Below are positions 1 through 4,459 of a stretch of 4,459 nt of DNA, piece after piece (position 1 is the stretch's first letter; the number at the start of each line of letters is the position of its first letter). The notes below the pieces were generated by a model. That model saw only the letters and a list, made by a program, of their open reading frames with translations, was not told the origin of the DNA and did not search any database. Origin of the DNA: a virus (lineage: Duplodnaviria > Heunggongvirae > Uroviricota > Caudoviricetes); IMG/VR virus record IMGVR_UViG_3300029234_000155. One strand, given 5' to 3'. The position numbers and the translations under genes are program-made.

Positions 1-20
1 GCTTCCATCGGAAACGATGA

Positions 21-386
21 TCTGGCAGCCTGAGTTCACAGATAAAACACTCTCCAGGAAACCCGGGGCGGTTCAGTCAGCATTGCCATGGTAAGGGCGA
101 AGCCAGCACAGCGTGCAGAGGGTGTAAGGGTAAAGGGATTGTTCTGGATGAAAAAAGAACCCGGTTTCATGGCGTACCGGTATATAAGATTTGTGGGCGT
201 TGTAATGGAAACCGGTTTAGTCGTTTACCGACCACGCTGGCACGACGTCATGTCCAGAAGCTGGTACCAGACCTGACCGATTATCAGTGGTATAAGGGGT
301 ATGCGGACGTCATTGGTAAACTGGTAACAAAGTGCTGGCAGGAAGAAGCATACGCGGAAGCGCAATTGAGGAAGGTGACGAGATAA
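21..386 (+). CDS. quuQ: Phage late-gene antiterminator Q, C-terminal portion (lambda-Q-like zinc-finger domain); 5' part outside the window and reading frame interrupted near the window start
   Basis: The frame with codons starting at positions divisible by 3 is open from 21 to the TAA at 384-386. It translates to ...TACRGCKGKGIVLDEKRTRFHGVPVYKICGRCNGNRFSRLP...LVPDLT...AQLRKVTR, which matches the CxxC...CxxC zinc-binding domain and ...VTR terminus of lambda Q as I remember it. There is no ATG/GTG/TTG start in this frame inside the window, and an in-frame TGA sits at 18-20. The provided ORF track misses it because there is no start codon. Symbol by synteny with Qin, from memory. Confidence 0.65.
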   Translation, partial: SGSLSSQIKHSPGNPGRFSQHCHGKGEASTACRGCKGKGIVLDEKRTRFHGVPVYKICGRCNGNRFSRLPTTLARRHVQKLVPDLTDYQWYKGYADVIGKLVTKCWQEEAYAEAQLRKVTR

Positions 387-417
387 ATGATTTTTGCTGA
401 AGATGGCGACATGATGT

Positions 418-453
418 TTGCATTTTTCAAAAAATATGGATAAAATTTTTTCA
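418..453 (+). promoter_or_regulatory. pR'-like sigma70 late promoter with promoter-proximal pause element
   Basis: -35 TTGCAT (418-423), 17-bp spacer, -10 TAAAAT (441-446), then 6 nt to an A at 453 that begins AACGATGGG. Lambda pR' has the same geometry and the same initial transcribed sequence AACGATGGG, whose -10-like AACGAT induces the sigma70-dependent pause where Q loads (recalled from memory). It lies immediately downstream of the Q stop codon. Confidence 0.6.
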
Positions 454-491
454 ACGATGGGCTTTGTATACCCGACGTTAAGAAAAAGTAG

Positions 492-522
492 AAAACCCGC
501 TGATGAGCGGGTTTTGTGCTTT
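492..522 (+). terminator. tR'-like intrinsic terminator closing a short (about 65 nt) leader transcript from the late promoter
   Basis: Perfect 10-bp stem AAAACCCGCT (492-501) / AGCGGGTTTT (506-515) with 4-nt loop GATG, followed by GTGCTTT. Its position about 40 nt downstream of the predicted start is as expected for the terminator that Q-modified RNA polymerase reads through. Confidence 0.7.
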
Positions 523-807
523 AAATGGGGCAATGGTAATGTTGAATCTCATCCCGGGACTCATGTCTGTTAACTTATTATTTAGCTGGTGACTTGGTTA
601 TTTGCCTGATGTTTAAAATGTTTTCTTCCAGTACAATGTCCCTAAACACAATGAGTCTGCTTATTATATTATTAGCAGAGCTATTACGGCCAAAGTACAG
701 CATAAGCTTTTAAAGCCAATCAACCAGTCATCAAGACAGACGGGGTTATTCATAAAAACTCTCCATGTGTGATCCGATGGGGCCTGAAATTAAAGCTTTA
801 ATATAGC

Positions 808-1020
808 TCATGAAAGGTAAACATTGGCAGCTGAAGGGCCACGCAGACCATTTATCCGGCAAAATTCCACGCGTAATCCGGTGGTAATTTCTTCTGCATC
901 GCGGAGATTGAGCGCTGAAACATGAAGCTGGACATCGATACGACCATCGGATGGGGTGATAAGACCCTTGCCGCTTTTGCCGTCAAAGGTTTTGACAATT
1001 CCTGTCATTTTACGGGACAA
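808..1020 (-). CDS. cspF: Cold-shock-domain protein, CspF/CspH-type (70 aa)
   Basis: ORF translates to [70 protein letters not shown], with the conserved MSxKMTGxVK N-terminus and GPxAANV C-terminus of the CspA family. The start is TTG (plus-strand CAA at 1018-1020) with AAGGA 6 nt upstream; the first ATG is at codon 5. Symbol by synteny (divergent from cspB in the prophage). Confidence 0.85.
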
Positions 1021-1124
1021 AAAAATTCCTTAATACTGATAACTTGGCGCACTATACACACGTTCCTGAAGAAAGCTATAGTTTTTTGATGGGGTTGAAG
1101 ATGGCTGGATGTCTAAAATAAACA

Positions 1125-1161
1125 TTGCTTCATATGTTCAACTATGCGTTAATGATTGCGT
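1125..1161 (+). promoter_or_regulatory. cspB promoter (sigma70) with upstream AT-rich UP-like tract
   Basis: -35 TTGCTT (1125-1130), 17-bp spacer, -10 GTTAAT (1148-1153), predicted start about 1160-1161 just before CGGTTTGAAGAACAGAC. The arrangement parallels the cspA promoter (TTGCAT / CTTAAT / ACGGTTTGACGTACAGAC) as I recall it. AT-rich tract TCTAAAATAAACA lies upstream. Confidence 0.55.
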
Positions 1162-1320
1162 CGGTTTGAAGAACAGACGATATACGAAGTAGTTTACTAA
1201 AGCAGTTCTCATTTCAGGTGTTATTCACTTATTCCTTCTTTGAGTCTCTCCAATTAAGTACGAAGTCGTTTCTGTTATGCAAACCATTTATGCCGAAAGG
1301 CTCAAGTTAAGGAATGTAGA
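1161..1320 (+). promoter_or_regulatory. cspB 5' untranslated leader (about 160 nt) with cold-box-like element at its 5' end
   Basis: GGTTTGAAGAACAGAC (1163-1178) resembles the cspA cold box. The leader length of about 160 nt from the predicted start agrees with the roughly 161-nt cspB leader I recall from the literature. SD AAGGA at 1308-1312, 8 nt before the ATG. Confidence 0.5.
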
Positions 1321-1536
1321 ATGTCAAATAAAATGACTGGTTTAGTAAAATGGTTTAACGCTGATAAAGGTTTCGGCTTTATTTCTCCTGTTGATGGTAG
1401 TAAAGATGTGTTTGTGCATTTTTCTGCGATTCAGAATGATAATTATCGAACCTTATTTGAAGGTCAAAAGGTTACCTTCTCTATAGAGAGTGGTGCTAAA
1501 GGTCCTGCAGCAGCAAATGTCATCATTACTGATTAA
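1321..1536 (+). CDS. cspB: Cold-shock protein CspB (71 aa), CspA-family cold-shock-domain protein
   Basis: ORF translates to [71 protein letters not shown], with canonical RNP1-like KGFGFI and RNP2-like VFVHF motifs. ATG start with SD and long cold-shock-type leader upstream. Confidence 0.95.
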
Positions 1537-1817
1537 AATTCATCGCTCGTCTGTATACGATAACGAAGAAGGCTGATGCCTGAGTAGAGATACGGACAGA
1601 GTAGTGAATATTGGATCTCTTTAATAAAAAGTAAGGAGGTCCAATACATGAAACAATGGCTAGCATATTTGGCAAAATCTTAATCAGGAAAAGTATGCTA
1701 ACCATTGTGGTGAAGTGCAGGTTTGCTGCATGAATAGTTTTACAGCAGAAGCTAACTGCTGGCATGGCAAAACAAAGTGCGTAAGTGGATGACTCCCACA
1801 AAAAGCACCACAATCTC

Positions 1818-1843
1818 AAACCCGCTCAGGCGGGTTTTTTATT
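1818..1843 (+). terminator. Rho-independent terminator downstream of cspB (possibly also serving convergent ynfU)
   Basis: Stem AAACCCGC (1818-1825) / GCGGGTTT (1830-1837) with loop TCAG, followed by TTTATTAT, about 280 nt after the cspB stop. On the minus strand the same hairpin is preceded by an A-run and followed by only TTTGAG, so it is a weaker terminator in that direction. Confidence 0.75.
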
Positions 1844-1899
1844 ATCTGCTTTAAATATATTATTAAAATATAAAAAATACTTGTTACTAATAAAATCAA

Positions 1900-2070
1900 T
1901 CAGGCTACAGCTTTAAGATTTGTCTGGAATACTTTGTTGCAATGAGGGCAGATCAAAAGGGCACCTTTTTGTACTCTTGAAAAACTGTGTTCTGACTCTT
2001 GGGTGCAGTTTGGGCAGGAACATTTAACGAGATAATTACGGCGTGATTTTGAGTTTTTACGTTCTGACAT
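1900..2070 (-). CDS. ynfU: Small zinc-ribbon protein (56 aa), two CPxC motifs
   Basis: Minus-strand ORF MSERKNSKSRRNYLVKCSCPNCTQESEHSFSRVQKGALLICPHCNKVFQTNLKAVA. ATG is the plus-strand CAT at 2068-2070, with AGGA 7 nt upstream on the minus strand. The 73-aa form in the ORF track has an unsupported N-terminal extension. CSCPNC...CPHC is a zinc-ribbon signature. The 56-aa length matches the Qin small protein YnfU as I recall it. Confidence 0.7.
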   Translation of the reverse strand: MSERKNSKSRRNYLVKCSCPNCTQESEHSFSRVQKGALLICPHCNKVFQTNLKAVA

Positions 2071-2289
2071 AGGCTTTTCCTGTATAAATGGCCGTATACA
2101 GTACACTAAATATGAAAACATTTCTCGTATTATTATTTTATATATGACTTTCTTTCAAAATAATTACCCACATTTTTAATGTGTATGTTTTTTTAGCGCC
2201 GTTGAGAACAACGTGTGCTGTCAAAACTACCCCGTAGACTCCGATCTTTTCAAACATATTGCACCATCCGTGTACATCGGGGTGAGGAT

Positions 2290-2505
2290 ATGAAATCAAT
2301 GGATAAGTTAACAACAGGTGTTGCCTATGGCACATCGGCGGGTAATGCTGGTTTCTGGGCATTGCAGTTACTCGATAAAGTAACTCCGTCACAGTGGGCT
2401 GCAATCGGTGTGCTGGGTAGCCTGGTTTTTGGCCTGCTGACGTATCTGACAAATCTTTATTTCAAGATTAAAGAAGACAGGCGTAAGGCTGCGAGAGGAG
2501 AGTAA
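2290..2505 (+). CDS. essQ: Phage-21-type class II holin (pinholin), 71 aa, with dual-start motif (alternative start at 2299 gives the 68-aa form)
   Basis: [71 protein letters not shown]. Two TM segments, the first Gly/Ala-rich (SAR-like), and near-identity to phage 21 S21 as recalled. ATG at 2290 and 2299 (M-K-S-M) parallel the S21-71 antiholin / S21-68 holin pair. GAGGA at 2284-2288 is 10 nt before the second ATG. The GTG-initiated 96-aa extension in the ORF track is not supported. Confidence 0.9.
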
Positions 2506-2509
2506 TCCA

Positions 2510-2817
2510 ATGACTCAAGACTATGAACTGGTTGTGAAAGGAGTCCGTAATTTTGAGAATAAAGTTACGGTAACTGTAGCCTTACAGGACAAAGAACGCT
2601 TTGACGGTGAAATTTTTGACCTGGATGTCGCCATGGACCGTGTTGAAGGAGCTGCGCTGGAGTTTTATGAGGCAGCAGCCAGAAGGAGCGTCCGGCAAGT
2701 CTTCCTGGAAGTAGCAGAAAAATTGTCAGAAAAAGTTGAGTCTTATCTGCAGCATCAGTACTCCTTTAAGATTGAAAATCCTGCCAATAAGCACGAGCGT
2801 CCTCATCATAAATATCT

Positions 2818-2821
<4 letters not shown>
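2510..2821 (+). CDS. ydfR: Hypothetical protein of unknown function (DUF1327-type as I recall), 103 aa, soluble and acidic, embedded in the lysis cassette
   Basis: ORF MTQDYELVVKGVRNFENKVTVTVALQDKERFDGEIFDLDVAMDRVEGAALEFYEAAARRSVRQVFLEVAEKLSEKVESYLQHQYSFKIENPANKHERPHHKYL. AGGAG at 2496-2500 is 9 nt before the ATG. It starts 4 nt after the essQ stop, and its TGA stop overlaps the rrrQ ATG (ATGA at 2818-2821). No hydrophobic segment. Confidence 0.85.
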
Positions 2822-3845
<1,024 letters not shown>

Positions 3846-4027
3846 GGTAATATTAAATCGGAACATTTACATCGCGGAATGTAAAATTTAAATAAAAAGG
3901 ACTCTTCCATGAGCCAAAATTCCTGAAATCTTAAGGGTAAGATAAAAGGTCTTAATCAGAATGACACGTTTTATTAATAAATAAAGCTATTCTTTCATTG
4001 CTGTGTTTTTCTTTACAAAAGTAATCC

Positions 4028-4207
4028 TTGCTATGGGTGGTTAATCATGCGTTAATGGTGTTCTGGTTTGTTACAAATTTATCTGAAGCAGTCATTGTTA
4101 TAATTTTATTATTTGTACCTCTTGAGATTTCCTTGTTGGTTTTTCTCTCTGATATTTTTTTTCGGACCATTCTGCCCAAGGGCTAATTTCTTCAAAAGGT
4201 AATAATT
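4028..4207 (+). promoter_or_regulatory. cspI promoter and about 145-nt cold-shock-type 5' leader
   Basis: -35 TTGCTA (4028-4033), 17-bp spacer, -10 GTTAAT (4051-4056), predicted start about 4063 before TGGTTTG. This is the same GCGTTAATG...GGTTTG architecture as upstream of cspB in this window. The leader length of about 145 nt agrees with what I recall for cspI. AT-rich UP-like tract upstream; SD AAGG 8 nt before the ATG. Confidence 0.5.
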
Positions 4208-4399
4208 ATGTCTAACAAAATGACTGGTTTAGTGAAATGGTTTAACCCTGAAAAAGGTTTTGGTTTCATCACGCCGAAAGATGGCAGCAAAGATGTGTTT
4301 GTCCATTTCTCAGCAATTCAGAGCAACGATTTCAAAACATTAACTGAGAATCAGGAAGTTGAATTTGGTATTGAGAACGGACCTAAAGGTCCTGCCTAG
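4208..4399 (+). pseudogene. cspI: Cold-shock protein CspI gene, 3'-truncated (63 codons; last strand of the cold-shock domain missing) by IS2 insertion
   Basis: [63 protein letters not shown] stops at a TAG (4397-4399) directly after KGPA. The in-window paralog CspB continues AANVIITD after the equivalent KGPA, and CspI is about 70 aa as I recall. The TAG is the first three bases of the IS2-like terminal repeat. Confidence 0.85.
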
Positions 4400-4459
4400 A
4401 CTGGCCCCCTGAATCTCCAGACAACCAATATCACTTAAATAAGTGATAGTCTTAATACT
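4397..4459 (+). mobile_element. IS2 (IS3 family) left end: terminal inverted repeat and first about 63 bp, element continues beyond the window
   Basis: TAGACTGGCCCCCTGAATCTCCAGACAACCAATATCACTTAAATAAGTGATAGTCTTAATACT matches the IS2 left terminus as I remember it (TAGACTGGCCCCCTGAATCTCCAGACAACC...). It contains an internal 9-bp inverted repeat TATCACTTA / TAAGTGATA (4429-4448). It begins exactly where cspI loses homology to its paralog. Confidence 0.75.

What the first reader, a model, noticed from the sequence alone, without database searches (positions are those of the whole stretch)
1..386. Q antiterminator gene appears interrupted: zinc-finger C-terminal domain present but no continuous ORF from upstream
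The Q-like frame has an in-frame TGA at 18-20 and no start codon between it and the zinc finger (CRGC begins at 114). The other two plus frames are closed at 31-33 and 92-94. A lambda-type Q needs roughly 100 or more residues N-terminal to the zinc finger, so the gene must enter from upstream yet cannot reach this frame without a nonsense or frameshift event within the first 95 nt. This suggests an inactivated Q (consistent with a cryptic prophage), a sequencing error, or, less likely, recoding.
Basis: partly seen in the sequence, partly recalled or inferred. Interest (0 to 1): 0.55.

Follow-up and report, generated by a model that had tools for sequence, protein, structure and literature searches.

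The report
IS629 insertion splitting prophage Q gene
The Q antiterminator gene of the cryptic Qin prophage really is broken here, because a common jumping gene (insertion sequence IS629) landed in the middle of it; this is ordinary decay of a defective prophage.

Summary
They are the last 75 nt of insertion sequence IS629 (IS3 family, 1310 bp), 100% identical to an annotated copy and ending exactly at that element's annotated terminus. TGA 31-33 is the stop codon of the IS629 orfB transposase gene. TGA 18-20 lies inside IS629, so it is not a nonsense mutation of Q.

From base 76 the window is 100% identical to the E. coli K-12 Qin prophage. Bases 76-386 are nt 443-753 of quuQ (ydfT), which encodes a 250-aa homologue of lambda Q. 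The break falls in the Cys148 codon. The remnant keeps the whole Pfam Antiterm/zinc-finger domain but has no ATG, GTG or TTG before position 366.

quuQ is uninterrupted in almost all of the 2471 complete E. coli genomes that carry it. The exact IS629|quuQ junction is absent from 5426 complete genomes. It does recur, base for base, in independent metagenome contigs, so it is a real allele.

The verdict is an insertionally inactivated Q. Nonsense mutation, frameshift, sequencing error and recoding are not supported. The left junction was not recovered, so simple insertion versus IS-mediated rearrangement stays open. The window's other end is an IS2 insertion in cspI. Low interest; already known kind.

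The parts
1..75 (+). Right-hand terminal 75 nt of insertion sequence IS629 (IS3 family), in the same orientation as quuQ
   Evidence: It is 75/75 identical to L005 1536-1610, where the depositor's mobile_element 'IS3 family IS629' spans 301-1610. It is 98.7% identical to the end of the 1310-bp IS in strain LC-1302-2020. The window:1-220 query, which also includes 145 nt of quuQ, matches tens of thousands of places on E. coli chromosomes and plasmids.
1..33 (+). Last 10 codons plus the stop (TGA 31-33) of the IS629 transposase gene orfB
   Evidence: The orfB CDS ends at L005 1568, which corresponds to window 33. The frame-1 translation is ASIGNDDLAA*.
51..75 (+). IS629 right terminal inverted repeat, ending ...GGTTCA
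   Evidence: It matches the left end of the same IS in L001 in inverted orientation (1790-1766, 23/25). Its reverse complement, TGAACCGCCCCGGGTTTCCTGGAGA, compares with the left repeat TGAACCGCCCCGGGAATCCTGGAGA.
76..386 (+). 3' remnant of quuQ (ydfT), the Qin prophage Q antiterminator: nt 443-753 of 753, i.e. two bases of codon 148, codons 149-250 and the stop TAA 384-386
   Evidence: It is 100% identical to K-12 (L002 3001-3311), where ydfT is annotated at 2559-3311.
76..79 (+). Presumed right-hand copy of the target-site duplication, GTC or GTCA (inferred, not shown)
   Evidence: IS629 makes 3-4 bp duplications (PMC3271280). CCA is duplicated at the L001 insertion and CTGG at the L005 insertion. 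The left junction lies outside the window and was not recovered.
96..359 (+). Complete Pfam PF03589 'Antiterm' domain of the remnant (QuuQ residues 155-242). The lambda-equivalent zinc-finger cysteines are at 114-116, 123-125, 192-194 and 201-203. Cys151 of an extra CxxCxGxG motif is at 84-86.
   Evidence: hmmscan of the remnant gives E=1.1e-31 over profile positions 1-87 of 87.
417..461 (+). Context: lambda PR'-like late promoter and Q-utilisation region that the missing Q would act on. It has TTTGCA, an 18-nt spacer, then TAAAAT at 441-446, and a conserved TCAACGATGGG at 451-461.
   Evidence: Promoter scan and alignment with lambda 44499-44759. The role of AACGAT as the sigma-dependent pause element comes from my own knowledge of lambda PR'.
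485..522 (+). Context: a strong hairpin followed by a T-run, the likely tR'-like terminator that Q would override
   Evidence: The fold of 453-525 gives -30.4 kcal/mol with z=-6.1.

Best explanation
A copy of IS629 (IS3 family, 1310 bp) transposed into quuQ, the lambda-type Q antiterminator gene of the cryptic Qin prophage. It lies in the same orientation as the gene, between nt 442 and 443, inside the Cys148 codon (TGT). The window starts 75 nt before the right end of that IS. It therefore shows the tail of the transposase gene, the terminal inverted repeat, and then the orphaned last 102 codons of quuQ. The orphan has no start codon and is out of frame with orfB, so no Q protein with the roughly 110-residue N-terminal region can be made. 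Shown here: the identity of both pieces, the exact breakpoint, and the fact that the allele recurs. Inferred: RNA polymerase starting at the intact PR'-like promoter just downstream now stops at the hairpin at 485-522, so the Qin lysis cassette (essQ-ydfR-rrrQ-rzpQ) cannot be switched on by its own Q.
For: Window 76-4300 is 100% identical to K-12 Qin, with ydfT/quuQ annotated as one 753-nt gene. Window 1-75 is 75/75 identical to the end of an annotated IS629 and stops exactly at the annotated IS terminus. Its last 25 nt are the inverted copy of the IS left end. K-12 reads ...GAACTAT|GTCAGCATTGCC across the site, while the window reads ...GGGGCGGTTCA|GTCAGCATTGCC. QuuQ is a true lambda Q homologue (7UBM E=4.6e-36; PF03589 E=3.6e-54). 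quuQ covers at least 80% of the query in one place in 2419 of the 2471 complete E. coli genomes that carry it. The same junction is present in JGI contig Ga0250068_08739 (L007). The whole window is present at 100% identity in ENA contigs L015 and L016, which run 64 and 49 nt further into IS629. L017 begins exactly at base 76. IS629 has hit the same gene independently at nt 136 (with a CCA duplication), and a 95.7% isoform sits at nt 29. IS629 commonly interrupts prophage genes (PMC4587872; PMC3271280).
Against: The left junction, and therefore the target-site duplication, was not seen. It lies outside the window. The predicted N-terminal hybrid proteins for a 3- or 4-bp duplication are not in the 15-billion-protein collection, either with the K-12 sequence or with the A74T variant of a related lineage. 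No complete E. coli genome holds either junction. Loss of function and the effect on late transcription are inferred and were not measured.
Confidence: 0.95

Rival explanations
1. IS629-mediated rearrangement rather than a simple insertion. The IS629 copy abuts quuQ nt 443 on its right, but its left side is joined to other DNA through an adjacent deletion, an inversion or recombination between IS629 copies. In that case the 5' 442 nt of quuQ are lost or moved. This is a variant of the best explanation and gives the same functional outcome.
For: The predicted simple left-junction products are absent from the protein collection, although right-junction contigs from several samples are indexed there. 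In strain E105 an IS629 isoform sits at quuQ nt 29 with flxA on its other side, which suggests the intervening prophage genes were deleted. In O157:H7 only 21 of 47 IS629 sites had matching duplications (PMC3271280). The source is IS-rich, with IS2 in cspI 4.3 kb away.
Against: There is no direct evidence. The look-ups need an exact protein match, so a single extra substitution or a different start call would hide a simple junction.
Confidence: 0.25
2. Point nonsense or frameshift mutation inside Q within the first 95 nt.
For: An in-frame TGA at 18-20 and the closure of all three frames.
Against: Bases 1-75 share nothing with quuQ and are 100% IS629. From base 76 onward identity to intact quuQ is 100%, with no indel or substitution.
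Confidence: 0.01
3. Sequencing or assembly artefact: a chimeric join of an IS629 end to quuQ.
For: The junction is absent from 5426 complete E. coli genomes, from the GTDB species representatives and from IMG/VR. The window looks like a short-read contig bounded by repeats.
Against: The join is exactly at the IS terminus, as transposition produces. The same junction was assembled independently in JGI and several ENA metagenomes with different assemblers and k values.
Confidence: 0.03
4. Programmed recoding (readthrough or frameshifting) yields a functional Q from the interrupted frame.
For: None beyond the interrupted frame.
Against: Intact homologues do not share the arrangement. The upstream sequence is the transposase gene's 3' end and the IS terminal repeat. 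The IS orfB frame differs from the Q frame and ends at 31-33.
Confidence: 0.005

Closest known systems
QuuQ / YdfT, the Q antiterminator homologue of the Qin cryptic prophage of E. coli K-12
   Same: Window 76-386 is 100% identical to the last 311 nt of the K-12 gene. The downstream gene order (cspF, cspB, ynfU, essQ/essD, ydfR, rrrQ, rzpQ, cspI) is also identical.
   Different: In K-12 the gene is one 250-codon ORF. Here the first 442 nt are replaced by an IS629 end.
Bacteriophage lambda Q (PDB 4MO1, 7UBM; Pfam PF03589)
   Same: There is clear homology over both the N-terminal region and the C-terminal zinc-finger region (39% identity overall). The gene lies directly upstream of a PR'-like promoter with the conserved TCAACGATGGG and a terminator.
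   Different: Intact QuuQ carries an insertion of about 47 residues with two extra CxxCxGxG motifs. The copy in this window lacks everything N-terminal to residue 149.
IS629 (IS3 family; isoforms IS1203 and IS3411) insertions in lambdoid prophage genes of E. coli O157:H7 and Shigella
   Same: It is the same element (75/75 identical at the end). It has the same habit of splitting prophage genes, and the 3-4 bp target duplication is documented.
   Different: This particular site (quuQ nt 442/443) is not in the 5426 complete E. coli genomes searched. Other strains carry IS629 at nt 136 and an isoform at nt 29 of the same gene.
Other decayed quuQ alleles
   Same: All show loss of an intact Q in Qin. 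One is an IS1 insertion allele (163-aa product ending VMLPTY*, seen on 210 contigs). Another is an A-run frameshift allele of 213 aa. A third is an in-frame ydfU'-'quuQ deletion in CP029057.1.
   Different: They arise from different lesions at different positions.

Membership tests
IS629 (IS3 family insertion sequence) | Nucleotide identity to a reference IS629, ending at the element's terminus | tested here: met
   75/75 identical to L005 1536-1610. The annotated mobile_element ends at 1610.
IS629 (IS3 family insertion sequence) | Imperfect terminal inverted repeats of the 5'-TG...CA-3' type | tested here: met
   Window 51-75 is the inverted copy of the left end (23/25) and ends in CA.
IS629 (IS3 family insertion sequence) | orfA/orfB transposase made by programmed -1 frameshifting | not testable with these tools
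   Only the last 33 nt of orfB are in the window. Full copies elsewhere are annotated with the frameshift.
IS629 (IS3 family insertion sequence) | 3-4 bp target-site duplication flanking the element | tested here: inconclusive
   The left junction is outside the window. It was not found by the IMG/VR scan, by the E. coli genome search or by exact look-up of the predicted hybrid proteins.
IS629 (IS3 family insertion sequence) | Multi-copy, dispersed distribution | tested here: met
   Queries made of an IS629 end plus adjoining quuQ sequence give about 26,000 places in about 4600-4800 E. coli genomes, and thousands of these are on plasmids.
Lambda-type Q antiterminator (Pfam PF03589 Antiterm) | Significant sequence similarity to lambda Q, including the Cys4 zinc finger | tested here: met
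   The remnant scores PF03589 E=1.1e-31 over the full profile. C161, C164, C187 and C190 align with the lambda Q cysteines.
Lambda-type Q antiterminator (Pfam PF03589 Antiterm) | N-terminal region of about 110 residues, continuous with the zinc-finger domain in one ORF with a start codon | tested here: not met
   The ORF is cut at codon 148, IS629 lies upstream, and there is no ATG/GTG/TTG before 366. It is the remnant of a family member and is not a functional member.
Lambda-type Q antiterminator (Pfam PF03589 Antiterm) | Position immediately upstream of a late promoter/qut site and a terminator | tested here: met
   Promoter-like site at 417-446, TCAACGATGGG conserved with lambda PR', and a hairpin at 485-522.
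Lambda-type Q antiterminator (Pfam PF03589 Antiterm) | Antitermination activity | not testable with these tools
   This needs a reporter or transcription assay.
Programmed recoding site | The interrupted arrangement is conserved in homologues that make a functional product | tested here: not met
   Homologues are continuous ORFs with different upstream sequence.

The most novel reading that the evidence does not exclude
quuQ could be a preferred or selected target. It is hit by IS629 at two sites and by an isoform at a third (nt 443, 136, 29). It is also hit by IS1 in an allele seen on 210 contigs, by a frameshift and by a deletion. This could reflect selection to silence the Qin late/lysis operon, or a local insertion hot spot, instead of neutral decay. 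The evidence here does not exclude this, but it does not require it either.
Probability: 0.1. Interest if true: 0.3.

Novelty: already known. Interest (0 to 1): 0.07.

Why it matters
It matters little beyond correct annotation. The feature should be annotated as an IS629-disrupted quuQ pseudogene, not as a nonsense mutant, a sequencing error or a recoding candidate. The two IS junctions (IS629|quuQ and cspI|IS2) are lineage-specific markers. They recur in several gut or environmental metagenome assemblies but not in 5426 complete E. coli genomes, so they could serve for strain tracking. The case also shows that three closed frames at the edge of a contig often mean the contig ends inside a repeat element.

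Tried and rejected
1. Exact scans for the junction in the GTDB species representatives found nothing with a 45-mer or a 22-mer.

2. The single metagenome-contig hit for the 22-mer (L003, Ga0247843_1000039) is a chance match in unrelated coding DNA and has no other similarity to the window.

3. IMG/VR scans for the right junction and for a predicted left junction with 3-5 bases of quuQ duplicated both returned nothing.

4. A synthetic left-junction query (quuQ nt 296-445 plus the first 150 nt of IS629) against complete E. coli genomes found no contiguous match.

5. I ran an exact look-up of predicted N-terminal hybrid proteins for duplications of 2-5 bp, with both K-12 and A74T backgrounds. The 157-aa and 164-aa products are absent. 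It could equally be a CAG-to-TAG nonsense allele.

6. I considered an outward promoter in the IS end driving the remnant. No forward promoter-like site lies before 417, and the remnant has no start codon.

7. I considered an orfB-Q fusion. The frames differ, and orfB stops at 31-33.

8. A literature search for 'quuQ' gave nothing useful on function.

Full report
**Observation.** The window was read and translated in all three forward frames.
- The frame that carries the Q-like zinc finger has TGA at 18-20.
- The other two frames close at TGA 31-33 and TAA 92-94.
- CRGC begins at 114, and the frame ends at TAA 384-386.
- After the TGA, the first ATG/GTG/TTG in that frame is TTG at 366.

The description is therefore accurate. 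Closure of three frames within 95 nt is unremarkable in itself: 38% of 95-nt stretches sampled from this same window are closed in all three forward frames.

**What the two sides of the break are.** A megablast of window 1-1300 against 5426 complete E. coli genomes gave 100% identity from base 76 onward. The hits are annotated ydfT (antitermination protein Q), cspF and cspB. Bases 1-75 matched only next to 'IS3 family transposase' genes.

Against K-12, window 76-4300 has no mismatch in 4225 nt, and ydfT (quuQ) is one 753-nt ORF there. So window 76-386 is nt 443-753 of quuQ.
- K-12 reads GAA CTA T|GT CAG CAT TGC across the site.
- The window reads ...GGGGCGGTTCA|GTCAGCATTGC.
- The break is inside the Cys148 codon.

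Bases 1-75 are 75/75 identical to the last 75 nt of an IS629 copy in Stx2 phage Stx2_499. The depositors annotated that copy as 'insertion sequence: IS3 family IS629', and it ends exactly where the window match ends. Its OrfB CDS stops at the position equivalent to window 33. Window 51-75 is the inverted copy of the IS left end.

- 31-33 is the IS629 orfB stop.
- 18-20 is an out-of-frame TGA inside orfB.
- 92-94 is an out-of-frame TAA inside quuQ.

**What Q is here.** Intact K-12 QuuQ (250 aa) matches lambda Q in the PDB (7UBM, E=4.6e-36), over lambda residues 1-125 and 117-207. It also matches Pfam PF03589 Antiterm (E=3.6e-54). Relative to lambda Q it has an insertion of about 47 residues.

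The remnant in the window still contains the whole 87-position Pfam domain and the four cysteines that align with the lambda zinc finger (window 114, 123, 192, 201). It lacks the N-terminal 148 residues and any start codon. It is out of frame with orfB, so no fusion is expected.

**Is the allele real?** No complete E. coli genome, GTDB representative or IMG/VR contig has the junction. The out-of-frame 62-aa ORF at 88-276 was used as a handle, because gene callers only call it when quuQ is broken. That led to JGI contig Ga0250068_08739 (L007), which is 100% identical to window 5-1869.

The truncated CspI at the other end of the window led to more contigs:
- ENA contigs L015 and L016 are 100% identical to the entire window and continue 64 and 49 nt further into IS629.
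- L017 starts exactly at base 76.
- L014 has the downstream IS2 junction but an intact quuQ, so the IS629 event is the younger of the two.

Independent assemblies with different k values argue strongly against an artefact.

**Mechanism.** The IS629 identity, the breakpoint and the missing start codon are shown. It is inferred that no Q activity is made.

The Q target just downstream is intact:
- There is a promoter-like site at 417-446.
- The TCAACGATGGG block is conserved with lambda PR'. In lambda, AACGAT is the sigma-dependent pause element; that statement rests on my own knowledge.
- A strong hairpin terminator lies at 485-522 (-30.4 kcal/mol, z=-6.1).

Without Q, transcripts from this promoter should stop after about 65 nt. 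The lysis cassette (essQ-ydfR-rrrQ-rzpQ) would then stay uninduced by its own antiterminator.

**What remains open.** The left junction is outside the window and could not be recovered. A simple insertion with a GTC or GTCA duplication is the default, because IS629 duplicates 3-4 bp (PMC3271280; CCA and CTGG). An IS-mediated deletion or inversion is not excluded. The E105 allele, where an IS629 isoform sits between flxA and quuQ nt 29, shows that this happens at this locus.

**Comparison and novelty.** IS629 is a well-known, highly active element that frequently splits prophage genes (PMC4587872; PMC3271280).

quuQ is intact in almost all of the 2471 complete genomes that carry it. It is also known in several decayed forms:
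- IS629 at nt 136
- an IS629 isoform at nt 29
- an IS1 allele seen on 210 contigs
- a frameshift
- a deletion

This window adds one more insertion site. It is an ordinary, already understood kind of event, and interest is low.

Noticed in passing
window 4397-4459: The window's right end is the first 63 nt of IS2. It is 100% identical to the copy on plasmid F, where it lies 29 nt upstream of the 'IS3-like element IS2 family transposase' CDS. IS2 cuts cspI after codon 63 of 70, and the TAG that begins IS2 supplies the stop. The window is therefore a segment bounded by two different IS ends, as expected for a short-read contig. This junction is also absent from complete E. coli genomes.
   Followed up: yes
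L014, L015, L016, L017 (ENA metagenome contigs) versus the whole window: L015 and L016 are 100% identical to the entire window and extend further into both IS elements. L017 spans exactly 76-4396. L014 has the cspI|IS2 junction but an intact quuQ carrying A74T. This implies that IS2 inserted first and IS629 later in a sub-lineage.
   Followed up: yes
window 417-522: This is a lambda PR'-like late promoter and qut region. It has TTTGCA, an 18-nt spacer and TAAAAT, and a TCAACGATGGG block conserved with lambda. A strong terminator hairpin lies only about 35 nt downstream of the presumed start. That predicts a terminated leader RNA of about 65 nt, against lambda's 194-nt 6S RNA.
   Followed up: partly
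L002 2559-3311 (intact K-12 quuQ); window 84-203 for the part present here: QuuQ has four CxxCxGxG-type motifs (C113/C116, C148/C151, C161/C164, C187/C190), where lambda Q has one Cys4 finger. The extra roughly 47 residues look like a duplicated zinc knuckle pair. The region passes Pfam's gathering score for the DnaJ central domain (PF00684, 35.4 bits against a cut-off of 32.7) and weakly resembles anti-TRAP. Whether the two zinc sites are tandem or nested as in DnaJ was not resolved. IS629 sits in the first Cys codon of motif 2.
   Followed up: partly
L001 1766-3075; L004 1266-2575; L006 5948-5990; proteins P0004, P0005: quuQ is damaged independently in other strains. IS629 sits at nt 136 with a CCA duplication in LC-1302-2020. 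A 95.7% IS629 isoform sits at nt 29, next to flxA, in E105. An in-frame ydfU'-'quuQ deletion across a short GGTG repeat occurs in CP029057.1. An IS1 insertion allele has a product ending VMLPTY* and is seen on 210 contigs. A frameshift allele of 213 aa also exists.
   Followed up: partly
window 1160-1552 and 4062-4453: Rfam cspA thermoregulator (RF01766) matches cover the leaders and coding regions of cspB (158.8 bits) and cspI (113.6 bits). These cold-shock genes sit between the Q gene and the lysis cassette, and after it.
   Followed up: no
window 17-94: One forward frame stays open out of the IS629 end. An ATG at 17 runs across the junction to TAA 92-94, giving a 25-codon junction ORF. In strain E105 the annotation pipeline placed the ydfT start inside the IS end, so IS629 can donate starts to downstream genes when the frame fits. 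Here the frame does not fit.
   Followed up: no
window 3523-3795: A +1-frame ORF embedded in rzpQ encodes a peptide with a lipoprotein-like LTSC motif. This is consistent with the known embedded o-spanin gene (rzoQ) of lambdoid lysis cassettes. It was seen only in the ORF list.
   Followed up: no
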